Origin: Escherichia phage APECc02
Sequence record: NC_041869.1
Strand: one strand, 5' to 3'
DNA length: 64,000 nucleotides
The position numbers and the translations under genes are program-made. The notes under the pieces were generated by a model that was given only the letters and a program-made list of their open reading frames with translations, had not been told where the DNA came from and ran no database searches. Below, piece by piece: positions 12,784 to 48,501 of the stretch (position 1 is the first letter of the stretch; the number at the start of each line of letters is the position of its first letter).

Positions 12784-12845
12784 TCTCTCTACCTCTTTCT
12801 TAGTTTATTTCACTATGGCACATCCTTTGTGCCATATCTCAACTA

Positions 12846-13316
12846 CTACTTAAATAGTAGTTCAAAATAGTGCAAAATTAACAGAAGTTGAACTACACCT
12901 AGTGCAACGGCAAGTATGTTAATCTTAGAATCGAAAAACTTCTTAACTTTTACTCTAAAAGGTTCCTTAATGTCCTTTACGATCCTATCTATAGATGACC
13001 TCATATCTCTGATTACCATCCTGAACATTAAAGACGGATGCTCCCCCATCTCTGTAACGGAATCGAAAACATACTCTCTTCGGTCATAAGGGCCGCCAGC
13101 TCTGCGTATTAACCTCTCCACAGAGACCTCGAACGTCACACCTGTAACGTAATCATCTATAACAAGTCGTGACGGGTCTTTACCTTTACTATCAAGAGGT
13201 ATCAAAGTTATCTTTCCAGATTTTGTTAAAATTTCCCCTTTTTCAAGCAAGGTGTACCAATGCTCTCTGCCAAGACTGTTGAGGCACGTTTTTACATATT
13301 TAACAAACATCGTCAC
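12846..13316 (-). CDS. tail-anchored membrane protein (C-terminal TM)
   Basis: C-terminal hydrophobic stretch INILAVALGVVQLLLILHYF. Confidence 0.45.
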   Translation of the reverse strand: MTMFVKYVKTCLNSLGREHWYTLLEKGEILTKSGKITLIPLDSKGKDPSRLVIDDYVTGVTFEVSVERLIRRAGGPYDRREYVFDSVTEMGEHPSLMFRMVIRDMRSSIDRIVKDIKEPFRVKVKKFFDSKINILAVALGVVQLLLILHYFELLFK

Positions 13317-13718
13317 CCCTCATCGCACGTCTGATATAACCACTCTATAAAATCTTGATACCATTCGCCCTCTGAGCGCTCCGTAGGCCAATAATCTTCA
13401 CCCTCTCGTGCATTAAAATCTGAGTATTCAACTTTCCACTCCTTTACCAGCTCGTGGAGAAGGTTTTCAGCCTGCTCTAAAGATTTATTTTTTTACCATT
13501 GCTGTCTCCTTTTTCAAGATAGTTATACATCAGAACTGCACCACCTAAGATGGCTACCAGTAACAATACCCCAGATAGCATCTCAATAAACATGGCTTGA
13601 AACACTGGAAGGCCTCCCTAAATTAACGCACCATTTTAAATACATGCTCTTTTCCCATAAAGGTGCCTGGCTAAGATCTGCGTAGAACGCAATCTCTTTA
13701 AGAACAGTATAAACAGTT

Positions 13719-13955
13719 TTAGGTGCGGTCTCCATCCCTACCCTCCTTTTTCTCCTTACGGATATTCTTGTAGTAATCAACCAAGCACATTATCACGATG
13801 AAGATAACAACAGGCCAAAAAGGTGCAGCAGTGATGATGGTGATAAAATCATCAAACTTCACCCTTCGTCTGGACACGATGCATACACCTGTCAAGAATA
13901 CCGCTGTTATAACGGACATTACCAGGTAACCTATTAGCACAACATTTATACTCAT
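13719..13955 (-). CDS. two-TM membrane protein with charged C-terminus (holin-like topology)
   Basis: two hydrophobic helices then KNIRKEKKEGRDGDRT. Confidence 0.35.
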   Translation of the reverse strand: MSINVVLIGYLVMSVITAVFLTGVCIVSRRRVKFDDFITIITAAPFWPVVIFIVIMCLVDYYKNIRKEKKEGRDGDRT

Positions 13956-13985: not shown

Positions 13986-14519
13986 CTACAAATGGTCGCT
14001 GAGGGTGTCAAGAAAATTATCCCGTTCTTTCTCAGAGTTTTCATGTGTGTAGCTGAAAAACATATCGAGAATAACCTTATTGATATATTCCAGCTCCTCT
14101 GTGTTCAGATGCTTAGCAGGATCTACAATGACATCCCAAATATCATACAGACCGCACTCATGATACCCATAACGCCACTCAATTGTCAAGCTGAGCGGCA
14201 AATCTTTACCTTCACAAACAACCTTCCATCTACATATGTTGGTATCTGGTCGTACCTGTGCACGGTACACCTGCACAAAATCCAATTTGAATTTGAGGTA
14301 CTCGTCATACAATTTAAGCACAAAGCTCTCGATTTGTGGAGACACTTTTGCAGCAAACTGTGCGTATTTGTACTTGCACTGGATGATCTTTCTGCGTTTT
14401 GCAGTTAAATTTTTTGCCGCCAGTTGTTCTTCAGTGTATCTCCACCTACGATCAACAAACGCAACAGGGTCTTTGTCCCCATAGAGGTCTTCCCAGTTAA
14501 TCAGAAGCATACCTGTCAC
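13986..14519 (-). CDS. hypothetical protein
   Basis: ORF co-oriented. Confidence 0.5.
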   Translation of the reverse strand: MTGMLLINWEDLYGDKDPVAFVDRRWRYTEEQLAAKNLTAKRRKIIQCKYKYAQFAAKVSPQIESFVLKLYDEYLKFKLDFVQVYRAQVRPDTNICRWKVVCEGKDLPLSLTIEWRYGYHECGLYDIWDVIVDPAKHLNTEELEYINKVILDMFFSYTHENSEKERDNFLDTLSDHL

Positions 14520-35696: not shown

Positions 35697-35918
35697 TTAT
35701 TCAAAGAAATGGGTGCGAGGGCAGGAACCTGCCTCGCCTTGTTTCACAAGCTCGTAGAGCTCACCTTGGCTTGTCTCATAAAGGCAAATACGTTTACCAT
35801 TGTCCCGATACACATCGACAAGATACGCTGTTTCACCTGCAAACACGACACCACAGGCCAGACATGCTGCCATGAACAAAATTGCCAACAGAAAATCTTT
35901 CATGGTTAAACACTCCAT
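35697..35918 (-). CDS. small secreted or membrane protein downstream of endolysin
   Basis: N-terminal hydrophobic MKDFLLAILFMAACLACGVVFAG. Confidence 0.4.
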   Translation of the reverse strand: MECLTMKDFLLAILFMAACLACGVVFAGETAYLVDVYRDNGKRICLYETSQGELYELVKQGEAGSCPRTHFFE

Positions 35919-35966
35919 AACATTTTATGAGGTAACAATACCACGTCCGTGTGGTTATGTCAATGA

Positions 35967-36437
35967 TCAATCCAGGACAATGCCGCCTGCCTTTTTAAAC
36001 ACCTCGATCAACTTCTCGATCTTCTGTTCATGCTGACCATATCCCGCGCCGGGTAACGAAGCCCAGCGGGAACGGCATTTGCGGATAGCTTCGTGGATAC
36101 GCCCTTCGTCAATGTCGGCGAGAGCCTTGCACTCACGGATCAGTTGCAACGCAATCTTGTCCTGACTGGCAGGGCCAAAATCTGGTAATCCTAACTGTTT
36201 CATGTAGTGTTTAGCAAACTTCTCCAAAACCTGGTAACGACCAGCAGCGGAGGAGGTAAGTTTAGCATTTAGCTTAACGTAAACACCTGGATGCTTGCTG
36301 TAATCGCTGAACAGCTTGCCGCCGACTATGACATCGTACCCCCGATCCTTGGTAGGTTGTCTACCATTATCTGTTCCTTCCGAATATGCGATCATATCCA
36401 AGAAAGCTTTTCGTTGAACATTTTTATCAAGTTTCAT
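35967..36437 (-). CDS. endolysin, lambda R-like lytic transglycosylase
   Basis: QRKAFLDMIAYSEGTDNGRQ...GRYQ...WASLPGAGYGQ matches lambda R nearly motif for motif. Confidence 0.9.
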   Translation of the reverse strand: MKLDKNVQRKAFLDMIAYSEGTDNGRQPTKDRGYDVIVGGKLFSDYSKHPGVYVKLNAKLTSSAAGRYQVLEKFAKHYMKQLGLPDFGPASQDKIALQLIRECKALADIDEGRIHEAIRKCRSRWASLPGAGYGQHEQKIEKLIEVFKKAGGIVLD

Positions 36438-36561
36438 TTTTCATACTCTCCAGTTTGCTCATAACTAACCCGATCAACAACACTGCATAGTGTGGTTATG
36501 TAGGTGCCAATTGAAAAACCATCATTCAATTGGCTACCGTTACCTACTAAACCATCCTACA

Positions 36562-37845
36562 TCATTCCAGAACCTCCCAAGTATCTGGGTTAACATTTCG
36601 GACGCAGATACCGACAGGGAATTGGTAGTTGTTGTCTTCTGTCCTTGCTTGATATTTGAAGGTGACAAACTTGCCGATCATTTCCTGCATCCTGTCATAG
36701 CTACGCTCCTCGTGCGTGCCTTTCATCTTCATTTTAACAACAACACCTTCCTTGTCAACACAGATAAGAACACCTTCATCATTCTTATCTTTCTCAACGT
36801 CAATAACTTTCACCTCTGCGTCGTTGAACTTTTTCCATTTCAATGCTTCAGATGTTCGCTGACCATACTCATATTTACCACAGAAGTTACGCATAATGGT
36901 ACCTTCATATCCTTCAGACATAAATATACCAACAGACTCTTCGCACCGATCAACCGTATATGCAAGCTCTGCATCAACAACCTTAATATGATCAAGCATC
37001 AAAGAAGTAATAGCACCGTTTGCCTCCATAAGATCCTTACAGCGACCAGACTCTGTTTCAGGATCCCACCACACCTTATCGCTAGGAATATCGAAAATAT
37101 GATACTCTAAGTCGTAGCTGCAGTACCCTCCGTAACGCAAATCATCACGAACAGGCTCAACATCAACAGGAATGTCCACCTTGTTGAAGTTTTTGTATGT
37201 TGCTAAACCTGCTTTAATCGCAGCCTGACGGCGTTTTTTATCTGCCTTGTAGTCTTTATCGATCTCGGCCTGAATTTCTTCCTGTGTGCGCCACCGTTTA
37301 GCAAGAGACACTATTTTCTGCAGAGGCAGACCATGAATATAGAGCTCTCCGTCGAGCTGTTTAATCCCGGTGGTTAGGTGGAAAGAGCGAAGTTGCTCCA
37401 GAAGCTTTCCTTGAATAGGGTAGGACTTATTACCACGGGAAATAAATTTAGGCTCACCATTCTGGAAAACAACAAGTAGACGAAGGCCATCTAACTTACG
37501 CAAGATCCAGCAAGGTAATTTAAGTGCCTTGCCACGCTTCAGGTAGTCATGCACCAACATGGGTAAAAGATCAACACCTTGCTCACAATCTTCCATACTC
37601 TCCACGTACCCGAGTCGGACCTGTTTTTCCCACTTACTGATCGCTTCCAGCTCGGCCTGTTGCTCAGCTGTAGTTTCATTGGCGCGACCCACGTTCTTAG
37701 GTGTGCAGATCGTCTCTTTGTATTGCAGTTTACCATCAAGCTTGCCAAACTCTACGATAACCTTATCACCATCCGTGAATACTTTCCACTGTTGGTAGCT
37801 GCCATCTTTGTTCAGTGCGTACAGTGTTGTTTTGATTTGATGCAT
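36562..37845 (-). CDS. ATP-dependent DNA ligase
   Basis: adenylation motif I KLDGLR, motif IV-like EGYEGTIM, motif V KWKK. Confidence 0.8.
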   Translation of the reverse strand: MHQIKTTLYALNKDGSYQQWKVFTDGDKVIVEFGKLDGKLQYKETICTPKNVGRANETTAEQQAELEAISKWEKQVRLGYVESMEDCEQGVDLLPMLVHDYLKRGKALKLPCWILRKLDGLRLLVVFQNGEPKFISRGNKSYPIQGKLLEQLRSFHLTTGIKQLDGELYIHGLPLQKIVSLAKRWRTQEEIQAEIDKDYKADKKRRQAAIKAGLATYKNFNKVDIPVDVEPVRDDLRYGGYCSYDLEYHIFDIPSDKVWWDPETESGRCKDLMEANGAITSLMLDHIKVVDAELAYTVDRCEESVGIFMSEGYEGTIMRNFCGKYEYGQRTSEALKWKKFNDAEVKVIDVEKDKNDEGVLICVDKEGVVVKMKMKGTHEERSYDRMQEMIGKFVTFKYQARTEDNNYQFPVGICVRNVNPDTWEVLE

Positions 37846-38114
37846 TACTCGGCCTCTTCCTTAAAAATTTTAAACATCTCTTCTTTACTCATTACCAACC
37901 AGTCCCCCATAAAATCAACAAGCCAATCACCCTGGTACAAGACTAGGTTACCAAACGGCTCTACAAGCTCACACATGCGACGAAGATCTCTGGTCCGAAC
38001 AGGTGACGATGTAAACACACCTGTATCAATCCACCGTTGCAGATCAGATACTGATGAAGAGCTTCCGTCAAACTGGTGTGCTTCTACAGGTTTAGCAAGA
38101 TTAAATAACGGCAT
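37845..38114 (-). CDS. hypothetical protein
   Basis: ORF co-oriented. Confidence 0.45.
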   Translation of the reverse strand: MPLFNLAKPVEAHQFDGSSSSVSDLQRWIDTGVFTSSPVRTRDLRRMCELVEPFGNLVLYQGDWLVDFMGDWLVMSKEEMFKIFKEEAE

Positions 38115-38439
38115 TGCAGTCCTCCTTATCTAATAGATCTTTTATTGGGTAAACAAGCAGGTGTGGATCGTAATAATTTATAGTTTTATTCTGCCACACT
38201 ATGAACTTAATTACAACTAAATTTACCACATCTTTATCTCCATGTAGTCCAACACACAGATTTGTCCATATTTTGTGGTTGAATACTTTGCTGTCGATGT
38301 AGATCTTAGTGTCAAACTTATCCTCTATCCTGCCTATAAGTTTAACCAACTCTTTCATCTGATCCCCAAACACAGCATCGTTTTCAAGATCTCTAGAGTG
38401 CTTGTACATAACTATCTGCCTCACTTGCATACTTTCCAC
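38101..38439 (-). CDS. hypothetical protein
   Basis: ORF co-oriented. Confidence 0.45.
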   Translation of the reverse strand: MESMQVRQIVMYKHSRDLENDAVFGDQMKELVKLIGRIEDKFDTKIYIDSKVFNHKIWTNLCVGLHGDKDVVNLVVIKFIVWQNKTINYYDPHLLVYPIKDLLDKEDCNAVI

Positions 38440-38472
38440 AACAAGTAAAGCCGGGTAATCCCGGCCATGTTG

Positions 38473-39186
38473 TTAAATATACTCTGCTACATCCTTGAAG
38501 CTCGAAGGCTTCATGATCTTACCTTTACTGTCAAGGAATATGATAACTTTATTACCGTTGTAGAATTCTTCCTTAGCAACAAAACCTTCATATCGACCAT
38601 CAAAGCGTCGCTCAAGATCTTTAATCTCCAACTCTATGAGTTGTTCAGCAGGCATATCTGCACTGGCACCGTGTGAATACCGTAGATGGTTGACCCGTGC
38701 AAACTTGCTGTCATTCGATTTGAGAACCTTACGCATCATCCCGCACACATCGCCGCGAAGCTGGAACAGCAAAGCTGTTGACAACTCCGCTAAACGGTAA
38801 GCTGACGCTCTTTGCTTGGATGTGTTTTTCGCAGCGATCAGTGTGTCATAGAACTCACCGATCTTGAACTTAAGACCTTGTGGATTATCAAACAGGTTTG
38901 ACCACTTTTCGTGATTGTCATTAACAAGATAAGCTGCATAACTTGTGACAACGTGAAGATCGCAGGCCTCCTTTAGCAGGTGATCTCCACCATCACCTTT
39001 CTCCAGCTCTTCCAAAACTTCATTGAACTCTTCCTCAATGAAGCTAAGCTGTAATTCGAATGGTGTGTATGATTTTTTCACTTTAGCTGCCACACGGTTC
39101 CAGTTTTCCACCCAGTTGGCAGACCAAAGGTAGTTTTCAGGTTGGGATAGTTTTTCCAGGTTGTCAATTAATTTAGTATTCAGCAT
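38473..39186 (-). CDS. hypothetical protein, possibly MazG-like
   Basis: acidic helix EEEFNEVLEELEKGD; weak. Confidence 0.3.
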   Translation of the reverse strand: MLNTKLIDNLEKLSQPENYLWSANWVENWNRVAAKVKKSYTPFELQLSFIEEEFNEVLEELEKGDGGDHLLKEACDLHVVTSYAAYLVNDNHEKWSNLFDNPQGLKFKIGEFYDTLIAAKNTSKQRASAYRLAELSTALLFQLRGDVCGMMRKVLKSNDSKFARVNHLRYSHGASADMPAEQLIELEIKDLERRFDGRYEGFVAKEEFYNGNKVIIFLDSKGKIMKPSSFKDVAEYI

Positions 39187-39199
39187 TAAAGGTCTCCTT

Positions 39200-39961
39200 T
39201 TAAAGTTCCATAAAGTTTTCTACAGTCTCAATGAATGTTTTATCAGAGAAGGCATCAACCGCACCGTTAAACCAAACTGGGATGCCGCGATCCTCATACT
39301 GGTAAATATCACTACGTGAAATGCCATTCTCCTCTAGATGCTGTGAGTCGTATTTATTAACGATCAGTAGTTTGGTTCCCTTATTGCAGGCAGGGAATAG
39401 CTCCCAGTTAAAATTGATAACTGTGTTGGAGCACCCTACAAGGATAACCATATCATTGCTCGTAAGAGAAGTCAACAGGTCATACATGTCTGTATACTTC
39501 GGAGCTACTTCTCCGAAGAACACCACATTAGGCTTAACCCAGGTATACTTTCCTGCGTCTACCTCAGAGTATCCAATGTCCTTAATGACGTCACTTCCTT
39601 CATCGTCCTCATAGACTATTTCTGGCAAATACCCGTGGACATGTAAAATATCTTCATGTTTTACACCAGCACGCTCCAGCAAATCATCTACATTGGTGGT
39701 AAGGTTGATCACACGACCAGACCAGCGGGAATACCACTCAGCGATCCGAAGATGTGCAAGGTTAGGCTCAACACTGCCTAAAGCTACACGACGTGCATTG
39801 TAAAAGTCATGCACCTTATAGTAGTTCTTGGCAAAGGTGTGGATGTTGCACACCTCATCGATGCTGAAATTCTCCCACATTGCAGTGCTACCAGATCGGA
39901 AAGTGGGAATACCAGATTCAGCGCTCAAACCAGCACCGGAGATAATAATCAGTCGTCGCAT
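39200..39961 (-). CDS. Sir2 (sirtuin) family NAD-binding protein, lacking canonical Zn-binding Cys pairs
   Basis: SGAGLSAESGIPTFR, LHVHG, VVFFGE, ILVGCS motifs. Confidence 0.75.
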   Translation of the reverse strand: MRRLIIISGAGLSAESGIPTFRSGSTAMWENFSIDEVCNIHTFAKNYYKVHDFYNARRVALGSVEPNLAHLRIAEWYSRWSGRVINLTTNVDDLLERAGVKHEDILHVHGYLPEIVYEDDEGSDVIKDIGYSEVDAGKYTWVKPNVVFFGEVAPKYTDMYDLLTSLTSNDMVILVGCSNTVINFNWELFPACNKGTKLLIVNKYDSQHLEENGISRSDIYQYEDRGIPVWFNGAVDAFSDKTFIETVENFMEL

Positions 39962-39969
39962 AAGTGTCC

Positions 39970-40320
39970 TCAGTAGATGTTTTGTTTAATCTCTATTCCA
40001 AACTTTTTAAACGAGTCAGCTGCAAGCATGAATTTACGAGCCGCTGATGGGTTAGAAGTATGCACGAAAATCTTCACGTTGTCAACTACAGGAGGCTTAC
40101 CAAATACAAATTTTTCCTCTAGGATGCAGAAGCAATCGTATCCTTCAAAAATTTCTCCCAAGTCGCTGTCAAAATGCCACTCAGAAACTCGTCTATAAAG
40201 CTTTCTCTTGTCATTGATGAAATCCATAAACTCAGAAGAGTTCTTCAGCCAAAGAGCATCTTGGAGCCCGTAATTTGACGGATCTCTCAAGTCATCCAGC
40301 CACACAATCAACTTCTTCAT
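39970..40320 (-). CDS. hypothetical protein adjacent to Sir2-like gene
   Basis: ORF co-oriented; no motif recognised. Confidence 0.45.
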   Translation of the reverse strand: MKKLIVWLDDLRDPSNYGLQDALWLKNSSEFMDFINDKRKLYRRVSEWHFDSDLGEIFEGYDCFCILEEKFVFGKPPVVDNVKIFVHTSNPSAARKFMLAADSFKKFGIEIKQNIY

Positions 40321-41252
40321 TGCATATAGTCCTCGTTGTGGAAATAGTAGTCAAGTATCTCGCGGCGTTCCTGCTCAAGGAGACAGTTCCACACATCTTC
40401 TGTGTAATTGCTACGAATGAAGTTTACCATGCCGTAAAACTCTTCGTCAACACGTTTAAAGATATCCTCATCCCAAATCTTCCAAGCTTTACCTCTCATT
40501 ACGGCCTTCCGTGCCAAATAGTACGGAGACTTGATCTTCAGCTGCAGATCATAAGGGTAGTAAGGCTTACGAATCATATACCCTTCACCTCTTGTTTCTG
40601 CAGCTAATTCTTTTGCATAACTGAACGGAATTTCACGCACAGTGTGAGGACGTTTTGCACCAAGGTATTTGGCAATCCCATCTAAAGCTGCCTCTGGTAG
40701 CATTATTCCAGAATCATTATATCTGCAACCTATCAAATATGCGCCATGATCTTCCTGAACAATATGCGGATCTGAAGGGTGACAAATTTCAAACATGAAT
40801 GTCATGTTTTCATTGCCCATAACCTTCTTGATAAGATCTAAATTACCACATTGCTCCTGGATGGTTTCCTTTGCGAGGTTACAATATGGAGAATCAAGAG
40901 ATCCGGTTGTTGAGAACAATAGTTCACCTTTATGAGAGGATACCACACCAAGGAATCCGTTCTTTTTCTCTACCGCCGTCACAAGCTTATTGTCAGGCAG
41001 GTTGGTGGAGTTTTCTCCCAAGTTAAACACTTTTGTGAAGGGCCATGCCACAACATTTCCTTCATTACCGACAACAATGCCTCGGCACTCCAGTAAACGA
41101 GGGGACAAATGCCATAAATTGTTGTAAAATACTTTTCTGGCATATTTATAGATCTTTAACCCAAGATCCGGGTAATATCTACTGGTTACAAGACCTTTGT
41201 CAACTAGGTCGTCTGCATTAAAATACTTCATCATACGTTCCTCATTTGTCAT
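40317..41252 (-). CDS. RNA ligase 1 (T4 RnlA-like)
   Basis: LLECRGIVV, FTKVFNLGEN, KKNG adenylation motif, LLFSTTGSLDS match T4 Rnl1 blocks. Confidence 0.8.
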   Translation of the reverse strand: MTNEERMMKYFNADDLVDKGLVTSRYYPDLGLKIYKYARKVFYNNLWHLSPRLLECRGIVVGNEGNVVAWPFTKVFNLGENSTNLPDNKLVTAVEKKNGFLGVVSSHKGELLFSTTGSLDSPYCNLAKETIQEQCGNLDLIKKVMGNENMTFMFEICHPSDPHIVQEDHGAYLIGCRYNDSGIMLPEAALDGIAKYLGAKRPHTVREIPFSYAKELAAETRGEGYMIRKPYYPYDLQLKIKSPYYLARKAVMRGKAWKIWDEDIFKRVDEEFYGMVNFIRSNYTEDVWNCLLEQERREILDYYFHNEDYMQ

Positions 41253-41295
41253 TTTGTCAGTCTATCCTGCCACACAAATAACCTAGTGTCAACAC

Positions 41296-41324
41296 TTGAA
41301 ATTAACAAAACAGTTAGGTATACT
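41296..41324 (+). promoter_or_regulatory. sigma70-type promoter (TTGAAA-N17-TATACT)
   Basis: hexamers read directly; upstream of kinase gene. Confidence 0.5.
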
Positions 41325-41352
41325 ATCGTTGAAATTAAAACGGAGTATTACT

Positions 41353-41763
41353 ATGTCTAAAATGCTATATATCGTGCGTGGTCTACCAGGGTCTGGCAAA
41401 TCAACACTGGCAAATGCGCTATCTTTAGAAGGTCTGTATCCACATTTTGAGAACGACATGTTCTGGTACGACGATGATGGAAATTACAACTGGGATGCAA
41501 GTAAAGTAACACTTGCAGCAAAATGGTGCAAAGATAACGTAGAAGATATGATGCGTATGGGATACGACCGTATCGTGGTAAGTAATACGTTTACAAAAGA
41601 AAAATATGTGCAAGAATATATTGACATGGCGATCAGTCATGGGTATAGTTATACCGTGATCGTGGTTGAAAACCGCCATGGTAATAAAAGCATTCATGAT
41701 GTTCCAGACAGGGTTGTGGATCGTATGGAACGCCAGCTTAAAAATTGCATTAAACTTAAATGA
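41353..41763 (+). CDS. polynucleotide 5'-kinase (T4 Pnk kinase-domain-like)
   Basis: Walker A GLPGSGKST; start taken at MSKMLYIV with GGAG RBS. Confidence 0.65.
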   Translation: MSKMLYIVRGLPGSGKSTLANALSLEGLYPHFENDMFWYDDDGNYNWDASKVTLAAKWCKDNVEDMMRMGYDRIVVSNTFTKEKYVQEYIDMAISHGYSYTVIVVENRHGNKSIHDVPDRVVDRMERQLKNCIKLK

Positions 41764-41770
41764 GGAATGT

Positions 41771-42325
41771 ATGAAATACTTTGTAACAAGCGACACACAC
41801 TTTCTCCACCAGCGGGTCATGGAGTTCGACTCATGTCAAAAACACAGATCTCAGTATGATCACAATCTTGACAGTATGAATGCGGGAATCATCACCGAGT
41901 GGAACTCTGTTGTGTCACCTGCAGACACTGTGTTCCACCTGGGAGATATTGCGTGCACTAATGATAAGAATATCAACAAATTGCTCCCAGATGTTCTAAA
42001 TATGTTGAACGGACATATTATTCTTGTTCGTGGTAACCATGACACAAGGACGACTGTCAGAATTATGAAAGAGTTCGGTCATGAGGTTGTAGATTATTAC
42101 GAGCTTCGCCACAACAAGAATTTGATCTGTATGAGCCATTACCAGTTTGCAAAGTGGAACAGAAAGCCTCACGGATCAGTCCAACTGTTCGGTCATGCTC
42201 ACGGAACCACACAGCAGTTGTTTGGCAGGCAGTTTGATGTCGGTTGGGATGTGTGGGGGAGACTCTTACCATTAGAAGAGGCATACCGTATTGCAATGAG
42301 TCTTGCTATTGACAGCGGGGAGTAA
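41771..42325 (+). CDS. calcineurin-like metallophosphoesterase
   Basis: DTHF, GD, GNHD motifs; start at MKYFV with GAGGA RBS. Confidence 0.65.
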   Translation: MKYFVTSDTHFLHQRVMEFDSCQKHRSQYDHNLDSMNAGIITEWNSVVSPADTVFHLGDIACTNDKNINKLLPDVLNMLNGHIILVRGNHDTRTTVRIMKEFGHEVVDYYELRHNKNLICMSHYQFAKWNRKPHGSVQLFGHAHGTTQQLFGRQFDVGWDVWGRLLPLEEAYRIAMSLAIDSGE

Positions 42326-42372
42326 TCCCTGCTATTTTAAAGAAAATTGCCACACAAGGAGAATCAGGAGAT

Positions 42373-42723
42373 ATGAAAGATGGGGATAAGCTGCTATATC
42401 TTAAAGTCCCCCTTGAAATACTGTCTATGTCAAAAGTTTTGAATGACACAACTGGGGAGGTTGTTGTTCTTGACTTGTATGACAAGATCGTATACTGCTA
42501 CCTGCACAACTGGTATAAGCTTGGAGGAAGTTCACGCTTCACACCCAGCACAAGGAAAATTGCAGCAGATGTTGGGATAAAGAAAACAAAAGCAGCAGCG
42601 TGCGTTAAAACTTTAGAATGTGCAGGAGTGGTTGAAATATCCACACAAGGGAGAGGTAAAAGATGCACATTTTCCAAAGTTTTGCCACCAGAAGAGGTTA
42701 TTCGAATGTCAACAACTGGTTAG
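42373..42723 (+). CDS. hypothetical protein, possible DNA-binding
   Basis: ORF with AAGGAGAA RBS; immediately upstream of iteron array. Confidence 0.45.
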   Translation: MKDGDKLLYLKVPLEILSMSKVLNDTTGEVVVLDLYDKIVYCYLHNWYKLGGSSRFTPSTRKIAADVGIKKTKAAACVKTLECAGVVEISTQGRGKRCTFSKVLPPEEVIRMSTTG

Positions 42724-42796
42724 ACCAGTAAAAACTTAAATATCTGTACTATAAGGATTCGTATGTTTTATGTTCGCTCTGGAACAGAGGTTAGTA

Positions 42797-42880
42797 ACTG
42801 TCCGTGATACGGACACTACTGTCCGTCACGCGGACACATCTGCCCGTAATACGGACACTAACTGTCCGTGATACGGACAC
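42797..42880. repeat. four tandem ~21-bp iterons, each palindromic (CTGTCCGT-N4-ACGGACAC)
   Basis: copies at 42797, 42818, 42839, 42861. Confidence 0.8.
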
Positions 42881-42884
42881 ATAA

Positions 42885-43015
42885 AGAATATAACTAAAAT
42901 AACTAAATAATAAAAAATAAAAGATCTAGTACTTATGGTACTAAGTACATATACTTAACTTATGTAGAATATACTAGATCCTAAGTACCATGTTTTAAAT
43001 TTATTACTTACTATG
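42885..43015. other. AT-rich tract with short direct/inverted repeats (CTAAGTAC, AGTACT)
   Basis: composition and repeats seen directly. Confidence 0.6.
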
Positions 43016-43020
43016 GGTAG

Positions 43021-43270
43021 TGTCGGCCCTTCATTGGCACTCGCCTACGAGGGGCGAGATGCCGGGCCTCCCTGGTGCACACAATAACAGAAGTGCATAC
43101 ATGCAGGTCTGTTAACATGTGTGGGAGCGAAGCGATAGCGCAGGCCAAAGGCCGAGCACTGATGTGGACCACCGACGAAAGCTTGCCAGCGCCGTAAGGA
43201 GTCGGTTGAGAGTCTCCCGCGCGAGCTTGGATGAAGTTTATGTGTGGAAACGGACAAGAAGGCCCCTAAA
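43021..43270. other. GC-rich ORF-free island with multiple hairpins (candidate structured RNA or acquired fragment)
   Basis: marked GC shift versus flanks; no plus-strand ORF; several GC stems. Confidence 0.35.
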
Positions 43271-43383
43271 TCGCTCCACAGCTATATAAACTATACCAGG
43301 TAAGGCAATCGCACCAGTTTGATAGAAAAGCTCGTTACAAAGCGATACAGTGAGTTTTTCTATAACTTGAAGAGGAGGTAGTT

Positions 43384-43962
43384 ATGAGTCCACGCAAAGA
43401 TGACCGTGAAAAGATTGCAAAACGTTATCAGAATGAAGAACAGATGGAGAAAACTTTCAAGTGGAAGCCAGGTTTCCAGCGTAATCATTCTAACGCTCGT
43501 GATCGTAAGCATCCGGATAAGTGGTTAACACCGCCAAATGATGGCATTCAGGTTGGTGATGAGAAGGAGCTGTCACCTGGAAAAGATGGCAACTACATTC
43601 GAACTAAGGAAGCAGGTCCAAAGGATGACAGCTATCTTGTAGATAAGGTTCTTGACGGTGTTGATGTAGGTGTTGACACTGTACGAAACCTTTTTCTTGG
43701 TTGGTATCGCACAGGGTTTTTCGACATCAAGGCTATTCGTCGTGTTTGTGATATTAAAAAGTCTGCCTACGATGATGATTCCCTACATCGCACTCTGAGA
43801 CAATACTCAGAGAGATACGGTCATCCAGTTATCACTCTTGACGATATTAACGAAGTTATGTATCATGTAGAGGTTGTTGCAGGTAGGTTCGGTGATGCAT
43901 ATCTCGGTATTCTCTCTGCAAAGGATGAGGTAATGTTAAATAAGATTTACTATGAACGCTGA
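43384..43962 (+). CDS. hypothetical protein
   Basis: ORF with GAAGAGGAGG RBS. Confidence 0.55.
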   Translation: MSPRKDDREKIAKRYQNEEQMEKTFKWKPGFQRNHSNARDRKHPDKWLTPPNDGIQVGDEKELSPGKDGNYIRTKEAGPKDDSYLVDKVLDGVDVGVDTVRNLFLGWYRTGFFDIKAIRRVCDIKKSAYDDDSLHRTLRQYSERYGHPVITLDDINEVMYHVEVVAGRFGDAYLGILSAKDEVMLNKIYYER

Positions 43963-44161
43963 GGGGCGATTAATGAACAATCCGGTAGCAAAGAACTGTA
44001 ATAAATTCAACAAGTCTGCGATTCACACTGACAGGAAAAAGAGTTGGTTTCCTGACATTGACGAGGAGCTTGAGAGTTACTTTGAAGATTTAGTCACCAA
44101 TGCAGAGGAGGTTGCGATTAAAGAATACGCAGACAGGAGGGATAAGGCCGGAATCTGTTGA
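43952..44161 (+). CDS. hypothetical small protein
   Basis: ORF with GAGGGG RBS. Confidence 0.45.
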   Translation: MNAEGRLMNNPVAKNCNKFNKSAIHTDRKKSWFPDIDEELESYFEDLVTNAEEVAIKEYADRRDKAGIC

Positions 44162-44186
44162 CAAAAATAATGTTACCTGATAAGAT
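44158..44186 (+). promoter_or_regulatory. sigma70-type promoter (TTGACA-N17-TAAGAT)
   Basis: hexamers read directly. Confidence 0.5.
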
Positions 44187-44237
44187 CTGCAATATGATGT
44201 GATACAATTTTAACTTACGAGGTCTACAGGTAATGCT

Positions 44238-44480
44238 ATGTTTAAGGTTAAGCTCGTTTTTCGTTCCATGAATGAGGATTATTTAGAAGATGAAGGTGAA
44301 TTTCGTGCACTGGATGATGCAATAGATTTTGCCAACGACTTAGCTTGTATGAATACGGGTTATGGGCTATGCTGTTGGGATGGTGGTGTTCAGATCGGTG
44401 ATAGCAAGATCTTCTACTTCTACCCTGAGCCCGATAACAAACAAATTAAGTATGTTTTATTTATTTGTGCTTTACAATGA
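44238..44480 (+). CDS. hypothetical small acidic protein
   Basis: ORF downstream of promoter. Confidence 0.45.
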   Translation: MFKVKLVFRSMNEDYLEDEGEFRALDDAIDFANDLACMNTGYGLCCWDGGVQIGDSKIFYFYPEPDNKQIKYVLFICALQ

Positions 44481-44767
44481 GGTTGTTTTCGTGTATCATG
44501 ATGAATATCCAATTTAAAGATGAATTTGATGGCTTTATCTCCGGATGCTTTGAAACAGGGTTCGGAGAAGGCTGAGTTACCCTTAGAGGGCTTGATAGTG
44601 CACCACACTTAAAATGGTAGGGGCAGCCAGCACATGACGATGTGACCCCAGCCAACCTGTAATAAGGTCGAGCCAAAGCGCGGTAATGGGCTCTGGTAAC
44701 CCACTTGTTGGGTCTTGCTGGTCCAGGACGCTGGACAAGTCGCAGGGAATACCACCCTGCGGCGAAC

Positions 44768-44796
44768 TTGACAATCAGTATTTGCTATGATAAAAT
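44768..44796 (+). promoter_or_regulatory. sigma70-type promoter (TTGACA-N17-TAAAAT)
   Basis: hexamers read directly. Confidence 0.55.
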
Positions 44797-44824
44797 CCAC
44801 CTATCACGTGATAATGGAGGAAAC

Positions 44825-45163
44825 ATGGCGGATACAACTAAAAAGCGTCGCCGTAGAGGCAGACCTCTGAAAGAGGAGTCCAACGCCATTCAGCTAGAGA
44901 AGAACATCCTTGATATGAAGGAATCTTTTATAGCGATGGTTCCAGAAGCTCACAAAGTTTTAAGAGAGCTGATGTTGGACCCGAAAACCAAACAAAATAT
45001 TCGTCAAAGCATTGCAGAGTATGTTCTTGATAAGGCAGACCGAATGCAGGAAGAATATGATGAGATGTTTGGTGAAGAGGAAGAGGTGGTAGTAGAAGAG
45101 GCTGAAAAACCAGCACCTTTTATGCCATTTACCACAGAAATACAGCCTGTTGGCAATAGTTAA
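44825..45163 (+). CDS. hypothetical DNA-binding protein (KKRRRRGRP basic N-terminus, acidic C-terminus)
   Basis: ATG with GGAGGAAA RBS just downstream of promoter. Confidence 0.5.
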   Translation: MADTTKKRRRRGRPLKEESNAIQLEKNILDMKESFIAMVPEAHKVLRELMLDPKTKQNIRQSIAEYVLDKADRMQEEYDEMFGEEEEVVVEEAEKPAPFMPFTTEIQPVGNS

Positions 45164-45172
45164 AATATTTTC

Positions 45173-45201
45173 TTGACAAACTTTGCTTAACAGTGTAATA
45201 T
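45173..45201 (+). promoter_or_regulatory. sigma70-type promoter upstream of tRNA cluster (TTGACA-N17-TAATAT)
   Basis: hexamers read directly. Confidence 0.55.
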
Positions 45202-45259
45202 TGTAAACATGGTCTCCCACCTTTTCTGGCGGCTAAGGTGTAAAAGAAAGCCACCCAGT

Positions 45260-45334
45260 GCCCTGTTAGCTTAGTGGATAAAGCAGCGGCCTTCTAAGCC
45301 GTTGACACTGGTTCGAGTCCAGTACGGGGTGCCA
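45260..45334 (+). tRNA. tRNA-Arg (anticodon TCT), CCA encoded
   Basis: cloverleaf folded by hand: 7-bp acceptor, anticodon loop CTTCTAA, GTTCGAGTC T-loop. Confidence 0.75.
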
Positions 45335-45338
45335 AATT

Positions 45339-45425
45339 GGGGAGTTATCCCGTAGAGGTAGCGGTGTAGACTGTAAATCTATTGTCATTGCGACTCGGGT
45401 GGTTCGACTCCACCACTCCCCACCA
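45339..45425 (+). tRNA. tRNA-Tyr (anticodon GTA), long variable arm
   Basis: anticodon arm AGACTGTAAATCT identical to bacterial tRNA-Tyr; acceptor pairs; CCA encoded. Confidence 0.8.
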
Positions 45426-45539
45426 AATTTACATTTTTAAATGCATAAATCATACAGATAATGGCATTGATATTTATCGTCGTTTATACTAGTCACTAAC
45501 TGCTCGAAAATCAGTGTCATTATCAGTATTGTTTATAAA

Positions 45540-45630
45540 TGAGGGTAGGGAGCAATGGTGCTCAAGCGGTCTTGAAAACCGTCCCGTTGAGGATGACTCG
45601 ATGATGGTTCGATTCCATTACCCTCAGCCA
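45540..45630 (+). tRNA. tRNA-Ser (anticodon TGA), long variable arm
   Basis: anticodon loop CTTGAAA, long variable arm, T-loop TTCGATT; 5' boundary uncertain by 1 nt. Confidence 0.65.
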
Positions 45631-45728
45631 TATTGTTGACCTTGTAATTAAGCGAAAGCCGGAAGCAGAACCGGATTATCAAATGTTACAGTCGTCATCG
45701 CCGACTAGCAACATGGTCAACATACTGA

Positions 45729-45825
45729 GCTAGGTAAGCCCTTTGGCAAGGGCGAGGATTTTTAATCCTGAAAATAGACGAGGTAGTCGTTGAATACATA
45801 GGTGGTTCGATTCCATCACCTAGCA
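45729..45825 (+). ncRNA. atypical tRNA-like element (acceptor and T-arm intact; possible TTT anticodon; ~31-nt variable region)
   Basis: GCTAGGT/ACCTAGC acceptor pairing and GGTTCGATTCC T-arm, but non-canonical middle. Confidence 0.3.
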
Positions 45826-45832
45826 CCTTTTT

Positions 45833-45908
45833 GCTGATGTAGCACAATTGGTAGTGCAATTGATTTGTAATCAATAGGTTGCAGGTTCGAGTCCTGCTAT
45901 CAGCACCA
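45833..45908 (+). tRNA. tRNA-Thr (anticodon TGT), CCA encoded
   Basis: acceptor GCTGATG, D-arm GCAC..GTGC, anticodon loop TTTGTAA. Confidence 0.75.
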
Positions 45909-45909
45909 T

Positions 45910-45984
45910 GGCCCTGTAGCTGGAAGGTTCAAGCAAGCGACTCATAATCGCCAGACGGTGGTTCAATTCCACCCAGGGCCACCA
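45910..45984 (+). tRNA. tRNA-Met or Ile2 (anticodon CAT), CCA encoded
   Basis: acceptor GGCCCTG/CAGGGCC, anticodon loop CTCATAA. Confidence 0.75.
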
Positions 45985-45995
45985 AATAATAAATA

Positions 45996-46072
45996 CTCCG
46001 CGTAGCTCAGCTTGGTAGAGCGCCTGATTTGGGATCAGGAGGTCGAGTGTTCGAATCACTCCGTGGAGACCA
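45996..46072 (+). tRNA. tRNA-Pro (anticodon TGG), CCA encoded
   Basis: canonical D-arm TAGCTCAGCTTGGTAGAGC, anticodon loop TTTGGGA. Confidence 0.75.
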
Positions 46073-46118
46073 CTTTCAGTTATACTTTAAACATATACAA
46101 ACAAAAGGAACCTTTAAA

Positions 46119-46388
46119 ATGTATACACTTAAAATTGTAGAGCGTGTAAATCCAACCCATACTGTAGATTTTCGTGACGATTTCAATCCTCTGGCTGTAA
46201 ATCTTCGAGAGTCATATCATGAACTCAGCTGCGATGCAGTGGTGGTCTTTTTTGAAGACAACTCTGAAGGGGCAGTAGCTTGTGTTGTTGATAGTGAGCA
46301 GAAGTTTTATATTTACAGAGATGTAGATGCATACTTGATGAATGAAAATGCAGTTACTGTTAGAATCATCCACCGAGTGCCTCGATAA
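46119..46388 (+). CDS. hypothetical protein
   Basis: start at MYTLKIV (track start overlaps tRNA-Pro); AAAGGA RBS. Confidence 0.5.
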   Translation: MYTLKIVERVNPTHTVDFRDDFNPLAVNLRESYHELSCDAVVVFFEDNSEGAVACVVDSEQKFYIYRDVDAYLMNENAVTVRIIHRVPR

Positions 46389-46440
46389 GTATTAGTCTCC
46401 TTTTAGTTAGTTTCGATCTATTTAGGTTACTCAATTTTAA

Positions 46441-46484
46441 CCCGCCCCGTTAGCTGTATAGCTGTATAGCTGCGGGGTTTTTTC
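46441..46484 (+). terminator. hairpin terminator with three AGCTGTAT repeats in loop, then TTTTTT
   Basis: CCCCG...CGGGG stem plus T-run. Confidence 0.55.
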
Positions 46485-46501
46485 GTTTCTGGAGCCTTAA
46501 A

Positions 46502-46900
46502 ATGATTTCAGTTTTAACATGGCTGAGTAGGTATAGAGGGATCATAAAAGGTTTAGTTTTTGCAGCTGCGCTAGGTACAGCTTATCTTGGGGCCGTATAT
46601 TGGTTTAACTCTAAGCTTAATGAAGCCTACCAAGAGGGTGTGTCAGCAACAGAGTTAAAGTGGGAACGGATCCTTGATCAGCAACAAAAGCAGGCCGACA
46701 AAATTAAAATGGGCCACGCAGAGGAGGTTAAAAACCTTGAAAAATCCCTTTCTGATCTGCAGGATAAATTAAATATGGCTGAGAAGGCAGGTAAAGAAAA
46801 GCAGATTATCTACCTCCAGTCACCTGAAGGCAAGAAGTCAACACTTCCTGATCAGCTTATAGATATTTATAATGAGAGTATCAATCAGGAGGATCAATGA
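46502..46900 (+). CDS. i-spanin-like (N-terminal TM plus coiled coil)
   Basis: TM helix GLVFAAALGTAYLGAVYWF then charged helical region; overlaps o-spanin start. Confidence 0.55.
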   Translation: MISVLTWLSRYRGIIKGLVFAAALGTAYLGAVYWFNSKLNEAYQEGVSATELKWERILDQQQKQADKIKMGHAEEVKNLEKSLSDLQDKLNMAEKAGKEKQIIYLQSPEGKKSTLPDQLIDIYNESINQEDQ

Positions 46901-47184
46901 GAGTTGCTACACTGTTTATTGCGTGCTTGTTATTATGTGGGTGTGCAACCAGCGTTGAGAGAGAATACAAGATTGACCCTCCGGATGTAGGAAGGTTGAT
47001 TGTTAAACCCCCGGAAGGTGCCATGAAACCACCTGCTAAAGCTATGCCTTTGAAGAAAGGTGCTCCAGATGCAGTAAATTCTGGCATTATGAGGGATAAT
47101 AATTTGTCTTGTAGCAATGATAGAGCTAAATTGATCATTTTGCAAGACTATATTAGAACACTGTTTCCAAAGGAGAGAGGTTAA
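46897..47184 (+). CDS. o-spanin-like outer membrane lipoprotein
   Basis: lipobox-like LLLCGC after signal sequence, Pro-rich mature region. Confidence 0.55.
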   Translation: MRVATLFIACLLLCGCATSVEREYKIDPPDVGRLIVKPPEGAMKPPAKAMPLKKGAPDAVNSGIMRDNNLSCSNDRAKLIILQDYIRTLFPKERG

Positions 47185-47618
47185 TGTCTAAGATTTCTAA
47201 GATTTACGGACCGTGTTCTGAAAAGCAGAAGATGATCCTCGAAAACGATGCAGATATTTTGGTAATCGGCGGTGCCGCAGGGTCTGGCAAGTCGTTCCTC
47301 TTGCAGTTGATGCCGCTTAAAATTATTGATGACCCACACAGCTCTGTGGTTATGTTCCGAAGAACAACCCCGCAGTTGGAAGGTGAGGGTGGACTATGGC
47401 CTAAAGCAGTAGCTATTTATAGTGATCTGCCTGAAAACATTAAGCCAAAGTTTAGAGAGAAGGATCATAAGTTCATTTTTCCACGGTTTGATCCGAGCAC
47501 TGGCAAGTGGGATAGAAGCAAAAAGGGAGCTGTTGTAAAATACTGCCACATGGAGTATGTACAAGATAAGCTTAACCATCAGGGGCTTGAGTACACCATG
47601 GTTTGCTTCGATGAGGGT
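47184..47618 (+). CDS. terminase large subunit, exon 1 (ATPase Walker A to Walker B)
   Basis: Walker A VIGGAAGSGKSF; reading frame ends at MVCFDEG then TAA at inferred intron start. Confidence 0.7.
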
Positions 47619-47668
47619 TAATTTGTAGCTCTCGTAAAACCTCCCTAATTGCGGGGAAATCTTTATTA

Positions 47669-47697
47669 TTGACACCACCAACCTGTTATGGTAACAT
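47669..47697 (+). promoter_or_regulatory. sigma70-type promoter inside intron (TTGACA-N17-TAACAT)
   Basis: hexamers read directly, upstream of intron ORF. Confidence 0.45.
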
Positions 47698-47836
47698 AAT
47701 AGAGGCTTCGAAGAGAGATCGAAGGTATGGTAACAGTGTGTTAATTTAGATAATCCGCAGCGAAGCATCCGAGAGGATGAACGTTCAACGACTAGTCGAA
47801 AGACGTAGAATCAAGCGATTCGAAACGGGAGGGTGA

Positions 47837-48427
47837 ATGTGTAATACTAAAAAATGTATGGATTGCCAAAGAGTTCTGCCTATTGATGATTTCTTTTTAT
47901 CATCTAAGAGCAAGGATGGATACTCAGGTACATGCAAGGAATGCTATATGTACTACAGGAAGGGTGGATCTCGTAAAAACAAAAATATGGTTAAGAGAGA
48001 TGACGCAGCATTGTTTATTCAAGACTTGCTGAAGAAAGGTGAACTTTTTGAATGCAAATCTTGTCATGAAAGTATGCTCGCTGATAGTTTTTACACAAAA
48101 CGTGACTATGGTAAAGTATATCTGGTTACGAACAGGTGTAAGATGTGTGAAAAGTTTTATCAGATTGAGAAGAAATTTCACATAACAAAAGATGAATACT
48201 ATCGTCTACTCTCAGATCAAGATCATAAGTGTGCCATTTGTAGAATATCTCTTAATGAGTATAGGACGCAAGGGTACAGAGATTTCTTTTGTGTTGATCA
48301 TGACCATAAAACTGGTGCTGTAAGAGGGTTGCTTTGTGATAAATGCAACAGAGCTTTAGGTTTCTTCCAAGAAGATGAGGAAACTATTCTTAGAGCGGCA
48401 GAGTATTTACACATTCATAAGATATAG
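47837..48427 (+). CDS. Endo VII-like HNH homing endonuclease (intron-encoded)
   Basis: CAICRISL...CVDHDHKTGAVRGLLCDKCNRALGFF matches T4 Endo VII zinc/HNH motif. Confidence 0.7.
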   Translation: MCNTKKCMDCQRVLPIDDFFLSSKSKDGYSGTCKECYMYYRKGGSRKNKNMVKRDDAALFIQDLLKKGELFECKSCHESMLADSFYTKRDYGKVYLVTNRCKMCEKFYQIEKKFHITKDEYYRLLSDQDHKCAICRISLNEYRTQGYRDFFCVDHDHKTGAVRGLLCDKCNRALGFFQEDEETILRAAEYLHIHKI

Positions 48428-48501
48428 TCTGGTCTGCATGGAGACATGCAGCTGCCTGAAAATGGCGGGGCAAGACTAGCGACCTTGCCCGAACATAAAC
48501 G

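What the first reader, a model, noticed from the sequence alone, without database searches (positions are those of the whole stretch)
35697..47184. Dispersed lysis genes: endolysin separated from spanins, holin not obvious
The lambda R-like endolysin (35967-36437, minus strand) is followed by a small signal-peptide protein, whereas an overlapping i-spanin/o-spanin-like pair lies 10 kb away on the other strand (46502-47184). No clear holin neighbours the endolysin; candidates are the two-TM ORF 13719-13955 or the small protein 35697-35918.
Basis: partly seen in the sequence, partly recalled or inferred. Interest (0 to 1): 0.35.

Follow-up and report, generated by a model that had tools for sequence, protein, structure and literature searches.

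The report
Scattered lysis genes of an rV5-like phage
This is the usual, already published lysis gene layout of rV5-like E. coli phages (endolysin in one place, spanin pair next to the terminase, holin still unidentified); the small gene after the endolysin encodes a secreted periplasmic protein, not a holin.

Summary
The window is a Vequintavirus (rV5-like myophage), 98.5% identical to phages slur16 and slur12. All coordinates in the finding hold.

- **Endolysin, 35967-36437(-):** a full-length soluble homologue of the lambda R transglycosylase (PDB 1am7, E 1.5e-56).
- **Spanins, 46502-46900(+) and 46897-47184(+):** the known rV5-family i-spanin/o-spanin pair. They sit at the head of the late operon, and the o-spanin stop shares one base with the terL start.
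- **No holin nearby:** no other membrane-protein ORF lies near the endolysin or the spanins.

This layout is published. Kropinski 2013 named rV5 gp89 the lysin and the 78-aa, two-TMD gp129 the "putative holin". Kongari 2018 lists the rV5 spanins. The LL12 and Gotham genome notes say the holin could not be identified. The BASEL annotation calls a different gene, outside this window, "putative holin".

No candidate matches any holin family, so the holin stays unresolved.

**What is added here:**
- The small ORF 35697-35903(-) has a variable, cleavable-looking signal peptide and a nearly invariant 45-aa domain with two invariant Cys. It also has its own conserved sigma70-type promoter. It is a secreted periplasmic protein, not a holin.
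- It always sits directly downstream of the endolysin, even where the endolysin allele has been swapped or the pair has moved.

Verdict: ordinary, low interest.

The parts
35967..36437 (-). Soluble endolysin, homologue of the lambda R lytic transglycosylase (GH104). It has no signal or SAR sequence.
   Evidence: PDB 1am7/3d3d, E about 1e-56 over residues 4-154, with the lambda SEGTDNG motif conserved as AYSEGTDNG. phrog_90 endolysin. Annotated lysin/endolysin/GH104 in relatives. No hydrophobic segment.
35697..35903 (-). Small secreted periplasmic protein ('B', rV5 gp90 homologue, 68 aa; the ORF could also start at 35918). It has a signal peptide and a 45-aa beta-rich domain with two invariant Cys. 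Function unknown. It is always immediately downstream of the endolysin.
   Evidence: phrog_4641, unknown function. Alignment A2: variable N-terminus, invariant mature domain. AF2 model, pLDDT 82: helix 2-16 then 4 strands. Adjacent to the endolysin in 4 further lineages and in 2 genomic contexts.
35935..35963 (-). Sigma70-type promoter (TTGACA-17-TATTGT, with TG) between the endolysin stop and the B start. It is also the recombination junction of the endolysin allele swap.
   Evidence: Listed as P090 in rV5 Table S4. TTGACA and the spacing are kept in all lineages although the rest of the spacer diverges. Identity to V18 jumps from about 65-70% to about 99% exactly here.
46502..46900 (+). i-spanin (N-terminal TMD plus a charged periplasmic helical domain), rV5 gp67 homologue.
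   Evidence: phrog_4297 Rz-like spanin, 7.5e-50. TMD at residues 14-32. Annotated i-spanin. rV5 spanin family in Kongari 2018.
46897..47184 (+). o-spanin (outer-membrane lipoprotein): lipobox LLCG|C with Cys16, 9 Pro in the 80 residues that follow Cys16, and one further Cys in the mature part. rV5 gp66 homologue. Its stop shares one base with the terL start.
   Evidence: phrog_1267 Rz-like spanin, 1.8e-22. Lipobox, Pro and Cys counts. Annotated o-spanin.
13719..13955 (-). 78-aa protein with two TMDs ('A', rV5 gp129 homologue). It is the published but untested 'putative holin' and the only two-TMD small protein in the window.
   Evidence: 91% identical to rV5 94058-94291. Named putative holin in PMC3606486. 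Homologues only in Vequintavirus. TMD2 and the KFDDF motif are invariant, TMD1 is variable. No holin family hit.
13986..14519 (-). gp128-like ORF (174-177 aa), tightly coupled upstream of A. It is labelled 'putative glycosidase' in the Bas57 annotation, but that label found no support here.

Best explanation
The region holds parts of an ordinary three-step lysis system of Gram-negative hosts, in an rV5-like (Vequintavirus) myophage. Its genes are scattered, as in T4, instead of forming a lambda-style cassette.

(1) A soluble R-type lytic transglycosylase (35967-36437) is made from the replication-gene transcription unit. It accumulates harmlessly in the cytoplasm because it has no export signal.

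(2) A holin that has not been identified opens large holes in the inner membrane at a set time and releases the enzyme. The single best candidate inside the window is the 78-aa two-TMD protein at 13719-13955 (about 0.3). It is at least as likely that the holin lies outside the window or is another membrane protein.

(3) The i-spanin/o-spanin pair (46502-47184) is translated at the head of the late operon together with terminase. It then disrupts the outer membrane.

The small gene after the endolysin is not the holin. It encodes a Sec-exported, disulfide-containing periplasmic protein of about 45 aa, made from its own sigma70 promoter. Its fixed position next to the endolysin suggests an accessory envelope or lysis-related role.

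Shown here: the identities of the endolysin and the spanins, the lack of an adjacent holin, and the conservation pattern of B. Inferred: the expression timing, the holin identity and the role of B.
For: - Identity of the phage: 98.5% over 11.9 kb to slur16/slur12, and 110 records cover at least 80% of the query.
- Endolysin.
- Spanins. Literature: the rV5 spanin family is classed 'separated' (PMC6139136), and the spanins sit next to the terminase with no lysis cassette in rV5, PVP-SE1 and CB7 (PMC7344957).
- No adjacent TMD ORF.
- Holin unresolved in the literature: gp129 'putative holin' (PMC3606486); 'could not be positively identified' (LL12, PMC6658697); not identified in Gotham (PMC7471380); bas57_0112 'putative holin' in the BASEL phages.
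- B is secreted and not a holin: A2; signal-like N-termini in the divergent homologues; the Cys of the tentative lipobox is not conserved.
- B promoter is conserved.
Against: - No experiment and no expression data were available, so timing is inferred from gene position and promoter type only.
- Candidate A has a basic inter-TMD loop (4 K/R in SRRRVKFDD) as well as a basic tail. The holin-like N-in/C-in topology is therefore not clearly favoured.
- A, the BASEL candidate and B are all restricted to Vequintavirus-like genomes, so comparative genomics cannot choose between them.
- A holin-independent route cannot be formally excluded.
Confidence: 0.8

Rival explanations
1. The 78-aa two-TMD protein at 13719-13955 (gp129 homologue) is the holin. 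It would be a class II-like holin encoded 22 kb downstream of the endolysin on the same strand.
For: - Two strong TMDs, small size, and a C-terminal tail with 7 K/R and 5 D/E.
- The only two-TMD protein that TMHMM and Phobius found in the rV5 proteome (PMC3606486).
- Present in all 114 Vequintavirus records hit.
- It lies in a cluster that also encodes MS-detected virion proteins (rV5 gp133 and gp137; phrog_7821), so part of this region is probably expressed late.
Against: - No similarity to any holin family in Pfam, PHROGs or NCBIfam.
- The inter-TMD loop is strongly basic, which is unusual for a periplasmic loop.
- It is not next to any lysis gene. Its partner gp128 shows no muralytic fold.
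- BASEL curators left it 'hypothetical' and chose another gene.
- A size of about 80 aa with two TMDs also fits early superinfection-immunity proteins such as T4 Imm (own knowledge).
Confidence: 0.3
2. The holin is encoded outside this window. One option is the 123-aa two-TMD protein that BASEL calls 'putative holin' (bas57_0112, rV5 gp183), about 4 kb beyond window position 1. The other is the 104-aa single-TMD, coiled-coil protein just downstream of the tail-fibre chaperone gene in the late operon (bas57_0036, rV5 gp31). That position recalls T4 gene t after gene 38.
For: - The whole-genome hydropathy scan of Bas57 and the rV5 table list these proteins.
- bas57_0112 is annotated putative holin in several BASEL phages.
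- bas57_0036 is the only non-spanin annotated TMD protein inside the late structural block.
- T4 t follows gene 38 (own knowledge).
Against: - Neither hits a holin family.
- bas57_0112 sits among early-region small ORFs with sigma70 promoters.
- bas57_0036 gives only weak coiled-coil matches and could be a fibre-assembly factor.
Confidence: 0.35
3. The small protein after the endolysin (35697-35903) is the holin (single-TMD type) or an RI-like antiholin anchored by a SAR-type N-terminus.
For: - Immediate, conserved adjacency to the endolysin.
- In this window the hydrophobic stretch is long (about 20 residues) and rich in Ala, Gly and Cys.
- rIIA and rIIB homologues exist in the genome.
Against: - The hydrophobic segment is the least conserved part. 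In the divergent homologues it is a textbook Sec signal with A/S at -1 and A/V/T/S at -3.
- There is no cytoplasmic domain at all.
- The protein is acidic (rV5 gp90 pI 4.8).
- It has its own sigma70 promoter and is not in a late unit.
- The same B allele serves two endolysin alleles.
- The antiholin variant is not excluded, only unsupported.
Confidence: 0.1

Closest known systems
Escherichia phage rV5 (Vequintavirus) lysis genes: gp89 lysin, gp90, gp66/gp67 spanins, gp129 'putative holin' (Kropinski et al. 2013; Kongari et al. 2018)
   Same: Same genes, order and strands. DNA identity to the closest Vequintavirus records (slur16/slur12) is 98.5%. B is 100% and A is 91% identical to their rV5 counterparts. 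The holin is unresolved in the same way.
   Different: Nothing material. This genome carries the 'TDNGRQPT' endolysin allele with a 125-bp upstream spacer. Some genus members (V18, YP-6, JEP1) carry a second allele.
Phage lambda S-R-Rz/Rz1 lysis cassette
   Same: The endolysin is a clear full-length homologue of lambda R (E about 1e-56). There is a two-component spanin with a TMD i-spanin and a lipoprotein o-spanin.
   Different: - There is no cassette: the endolysin, the spanins and any holin are in separate transcription units.
- The o-spanin gene is not embedded in the i-spanin gene (4-nt overlap only).
- No S homologue.
Phage T4 lysis genes (e, t, pseT.3/pseT.2, rI, sp, imm)
   Same: - Dispersed layout in a large virulent myophage.
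- 'Separated' spanin architecture.
- The endolysin is not in a late cassette.
- rIIA/rIIB are present.
- A small signal-peptide periplasmic protein and a small two-TMD protein recall Sp/RI and Imm in size and topology (own knowledge).
   Different: No sequence or fold similarity to T, RI, Sp or Imm was detected. The endolysin is R-type, not T4 e-type. The resemblance is one of organisation only.

Membership tests
Lambda R-type endolysin (GH104 lytic transglycosylase) | Full-length sequence homology to lambda R | tested here: met
   1am7/3d3d, E 1.5e-56, residues 4-154 aligned to 3-153. phrog_90.
Lambda R-type endolysin (GH104 lytic transglycosylase) | Conserved catalytic Glu in the SEGT motif (lambda Glu19) | tested here: met
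   AYSEGTDNG aligns with lambda AWSEGTDNG. The assignment of Glu19 as the catalytic residue is from own knowledge.
Lambda R-type endolysin (GH104 lytic transglycosylase) | Soluble cytoplasmic form (no signal or SAR domain), hence dependent on a holin | tested here: met
   No hydrophobic window reached KD 1.6. The N-terminus MKLDKNVQRKAF is polar.
Lambda R-type endolysin (GH104 lytic transglycosylase) | Transglycosylase activity on peptidoglycan | not testable with these tools
   Needs an enzyme assay.
Two-component spanin (Rz/Rz1-like, rV5 family) | i-spanin: N-terminal TMD plus a charged, helical periplasmic domain | tested here: met
   TMD at residues 14-32. phrog_4297, 7.5e-50.
Two-component spanin (Rz/Rz1-like, rV5 family) | o-spanin: lipobox with Cys, non-Asp at +2, Pro-rich short mature protein | tested here: met
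   LLCG|C (Cys16) followed by Ala. 9 Pro in the 80 residues after Cys16, and one additional Cys in the mature part. phrog_1267.
Two-component spanin (Rz/Rz1-like, rV5 family) | The two genes are adjacent or overlapping | tested here: met
   4-nt ATGA overlap at 46897-46900. Classed as 'separated' architecture for rV5.
Two-component spanin (Rz/Rz1-like, rV5 family) | Required for outer-membrane disruption | not testable with these tools
   Needs genetics.
Holin (candidate A, 13719-13955) | Small protein with at least one TMD and a charged C-terminal tail | tested here: met
   78 aa, two TMDs (KD 2.4 and 2.5), tail with 7 K/R and 5 D/E.
Holin (candidate A, 13719-13955) | Homology to a described holin family | tested here: not met
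   No holin family in Pfam, PHROGs or NCBIfam. phrog_10061 has unknown function.
Holin (candidate A, 13719-13955) | Genetic linkage to an endolysin or spanin | tested here: not met
   22 kb from the endolysin. The upstream partner gp128 has no muralytic fold.
Holin (candidate A, 13719-13955) | N-in/C-in topology with a periplasmic loop (class II) | tested here: inconclusive
   The loop SRRRVKFDD carries 4 K/R and the tail carries 7 K/R. The positive-inside rule does not decide.
Holin (candidate A, 13719-13955) | Late expression and timed lethal hole formation that releases the endolysin | not testable with these tools
   No transcriptome or genetics was found.
Holin (candidate B, 35697-35903) | Stable TMD retained in the inner membrane, plus a cytoplasmic charged domain | tested here: not met
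   The N-terminal hydrophobic stretch is variable and followed by a conserved -3/-1 signal-peptidase pattern. All conserved residues lie in the exported domain, which has two invariant Cys. There is no cytoplasmic tail.
Periplasmic phage effectors of the T4 Sp (Spackle) / RI type (candidate B) | Sequence or fold similarity to Sp or RI | tested here: not met
Periplasmic phage effectors of the T4 Sp (Spackle) / RI type (candidate B) | Signal-peptide or SAR export of a small periplasmic domain, expressed from an early-type promoter | tested here: met
   (predictions only).

The most novel reading that the evidence does not exclude
The 45-aa disulfide-containing periplasmic protein is encoded immediately after the endolysin in every lineage examined, whichever endolysin allele is present and wherever the pair sits. 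It could be a new kind of periplasmic lysis or envelope regulator. One possibility is an inhibitor of R-type or tail-borne muralytic enzymes that blocks superinfection or lysis from without. Another is a sensor that modulates the unknown holin.
Probability: 0.2. Interest if true: 0.5.

Novelty: already known. Interest (0 to 1): 0.15.

Why it matters
It matters little as it stands. The dispersed layout, the spanins next to the terminase and the missing holin have been recorded for rV5-like phages since 2013-2019.

One question is still open: which gene is the Vequintavirus holin. These phages are widely used in phage-therapy and biocontrol cocktails. The candidates are few: the gp129-, gp183-, gp31- and gp134-like proteins. 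The question could be settled by simple complementation tests.

The strictly endolysin-linked secreted mini-protein is a small, testable lead.

Tried and rejected
- **Holin family searches.** Pfam, PHROGs, NCBIfam and PADLOC scans of A, B, the gp134-like ORF and the out-of-window candidates gave no holin or defence family.
- **Deep homologue searches.** Homologues of A and B occur only in Vequintavirus-like contigs, so there was no informative context outside the group.
- **Sigma70-like site upstream of A (14011-13983).** Its TTGACA lies in the conserved codons F-L-D. In the divergent contig L014 the -10 position overlaps the start codon, and promoter-like sites in that region are not above chance. 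It is not counted as evidence.
- **Late-promoter motif TGGTAAAATA.** It is enriched in the window (20 matches against 6.4 expected). The exact copies lie only in the structural region, and none sits just upstream of the endolysin, A or B, so it does not discriminate.
- **Lipoprotein reading of B (FMAAC).** Rejected, because the Cys is absent in the divergent homologues.
- **Literature.** Searches for a Vequintavirus transcriptome or an identified holin found none.
- **Rfam.** It found only the tRNAs, and no intron family in terL.


Full report
**What the window is.** An 11.9-kb query around the finding is 98.5% identical to Escherichia phages slur16 and slur12. It matches 744 phage records, and 110 of them cover at least 80% of the query. 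The window is part of an rV5-like myophage of the genus Vequintavirus. GC skew and the ORF layout show a minus-strand unit from about 41.2 kb down to about 4 kb, holding replication and nucleotide-metabolism genes and many small ORFs. A plus-strand unit runs from about 41.3 kb onward: small genes, a tRNA cluster, spanins, terminase, portal and head genes.

**Checking the observation.**
- The 156-aa product of 35967-36437(-) aligns over its whole length with lambda lysozyme R (1am7, E 1.5e-56). The SEGTDNG active-site motif is included. It hits phrog_90 'endolysin'. It has no hydrophobic N-terminus, so it is a soluble, holin-dependent enzyme.
- ORFs 46502-46900(+) and 46897-47184(+) hit the PHROG spanin families phrog_4297 and phrog_1267. 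The first has one N-terminal TMD. The second has a lipobox LLCG|C, 9 prolines in the 80 residues after Cys16, and one more Cys. Well-curated relatives annotate them as i- and o-spanin.
- The two spanin genes overlap by ATGA. The o-spanin stop shares a base with the terL start, so the pair heads the late operon.
- A both-strand hydropathy scan around the endolysin and the spanins found no other coding-strand membrane ORF.

**It is already known.**
- Kropinski et al. 2013 described rV5 gp89 as the lysin.
- Kongari et al. 2018 list an rV5 spanin family under the 'separated' architecture.
- The CB7 paper notes that in CB7, rV5 and PVP-SE1 the spanins sit next to the large terminase, outside any cassette.
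[quoted passage not shown] The Gotham note says the same.
- The BASEL annotations label a different protein 'putative holin': bas57_0112, 123 aa, two N-terminal TMDs, the homologue of rV5 gp183. By synteny with Bas57 this gene lies about 4 kb to the left of window position 1.

**Can the holin be named?** Not with sequence tools.
- Candidate A has homologues only in Vequintavirus-type genomes, at 55-100% identity. Its second TMD and the preceding KFDDF motif are invariant, while the first TMD varies.
- The inter-TMD loop of A is strongly basic (SRRRVKFDD) and so is its tail, so the holin-like N-in/C-in topology is not clearly favoured.
- A matches no holin family.
- Other candidates with holin-compatible shapes exist. 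The gp134-like ORF 12436-12783(-) has an N-terminal TMD and a 90-aa acidic C-terminal domain containing Cys, a T4 T-like topology. Outside the window are bas57_0112 and bas57_0036. bas57_0036 has a single TMD and a coiled coil, and it lies directly after the tail-fibre chaperone gene in the late block, as T4 t lies after gene 38. None of these hits a holin family.
- My estimate: A about 0.3, an out-of-window candidate about 0.35, and the remainder something else.

**The small protein after the endolysin (B).**
- In ten cluster representatives (61-87% identical to the window protein), the N-terminal 20-22 residues vary freely. They always form a short basic n-region and a hydrophobic core, with small residues at -3/-1 (VFA|G, AWS|G, TFA|G, VRS|G).
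- Everything after G23 is almost invariant, including two Cys.
- The Cys that could make a lipobox in this window is absent elsewhere, so B is not a lipoprotein.
- AF2 gives a helix followed by a four-stranded sheet (pLDDT 82). It resembles no solved fold in an informative way.
- B is therefore a Sec-exported, cleaved periplasmic mini-protein, probably with one disulfide. It has no membrane-resident part and no cytoplasmic tail, and so is not a holin.
- B has its own promoter in the 48-63-nt spacer: TTGACA-17-TATTGT with an upstream TG. This promoter is already listed as P090 for rV5. Its -35 hexamer and spacing are conserved in all lineages although the spacer otherwise diverges.
- In rV5-like phages such full sigma70 promoters mark the non-late units, while late genes carry a motif without a -35 element, TGGTAAAATA. 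B is therefore probably not a late gene.

**Linkage of B to the endolysin.**
- B lies directly downstream of an R-type endolysin in every context retrieved. This includes a divergent lineage in which the pair sits after the exonuclease block instead of after the ligase.
- Two endolysin allele types exist, about 62-68% identical to each other. Each occurs with an identical B. Window versus V18: B 100%, endolysin 68%. L012 versus L013: B 100%, endolysin 67%.
- The DNA alignment with V18 switches from about 65-70% to about 99% identity exactly at the B promoter.
- So the endolysin gene is repeatedly swapped by recombination while B stays in place. This argues for a positional or functional link. 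It argues against allele-specific co-evolution with the endolysin.
- What B does is unknown. By analogy only, T4 encodes small exported proteins with envelope roles: Sp inhibits the tail lysozyme of superinfecting phage, and RI is an antiholin (own knowledge).

**Most likely mechanism.**
1. The R-type transglycosylase is made with the replication genes and waits in the cytoplasm.
2. An unidentified holin triggers and releases it.
3. The spanin pair, made with the late structural genes, removes the outer membrane.

The first and last steps rest on strong homology. The middle step is inferred from the absence of an export signal on the endolysin.

**Verdict.** The finding restates published knowledge about rV5-like phages, so novelty is 'already known' and interest is low (0.15). 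The one modest new lead is the strictly endolysin-linked secreted mini-protein.

Noticed in passing
window 35935-36561 (compare L009 = phage V18 65300-66500): The endolysin gene is a swapped allele cassette. There are two R-type alleles, about 62-68% identical in protein, and each occurs with an identical downstream gene. The recombination junction lies exactly at the promoter TTGACATAACCACACGGACGTGGTATTGT. The window's allele also brings a 125-bp upstream spacer, which V18 lacks.
   Followed up: yes
window 35949-35960(-) and 36490-36501(-): An exact 12-mer, ACATAACCACAC, flanks the endolysin gene on both sides. These are the only two exact copies in 64 kb. It may be a promoter element or a recombination scar.
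   Followed up: partly
window 47184-49623: The terL gene is interrupted. Compared with the intact terL of phage A51.2, an 884-bp insertion (47618-48501) carries an endonuclease ORF (47837-48427), annotated 'putative recombinase endonuclease' in phage inoa. This is known for rV5 and LL12, where it is called a predicted intron. Rfam detects no intron family.
   Followed up: partly
window 45729-45827(+): An unusually long tRNA-like gene (97-99 nt). ARAGORN gives a 4-base anticodon 'atcc'. The Rfam tRNA score is only 35.5 bits. Bas57 annotates it tRNA-Lys and inoa annotates it 'tRNA-OTHER'.
   Followed up: no
window 12436-13955(-): A cluster of small membrane proteins lies downstream of candidate A: a 42-aa 1-TMD ORF (13477-13605), a 156-aa protein with a C-terminal TMD whose rV5 homologue was detected in virions by MS (12846-13316), and a 115-aa protein with an N-terminal TMD and an acidic, Cys-containing C-terminal domain (12436-12783; T4 T-like topology).
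   Followed up: partly
phage collection, records MG0656xx (for example MG065658, MG065661): About 19 records named 'Campylobacter phage' with host Campylobacter jejuni are about 96% identical to this E. coli Vequintavirus genome. They are probably mislabelled or come from contaminating coliphages.
   Followed up: no
Bas57 (MZ501094) 57768-58268, outside the window: A second 'putative cell wall hydrolase' with an N-terminal signal-like sequence lies just upstream of rIIA/rIIB. A secreted or SAR-type muralytic enzyme might bear on how lysis works in this genus.
   Followed up: no
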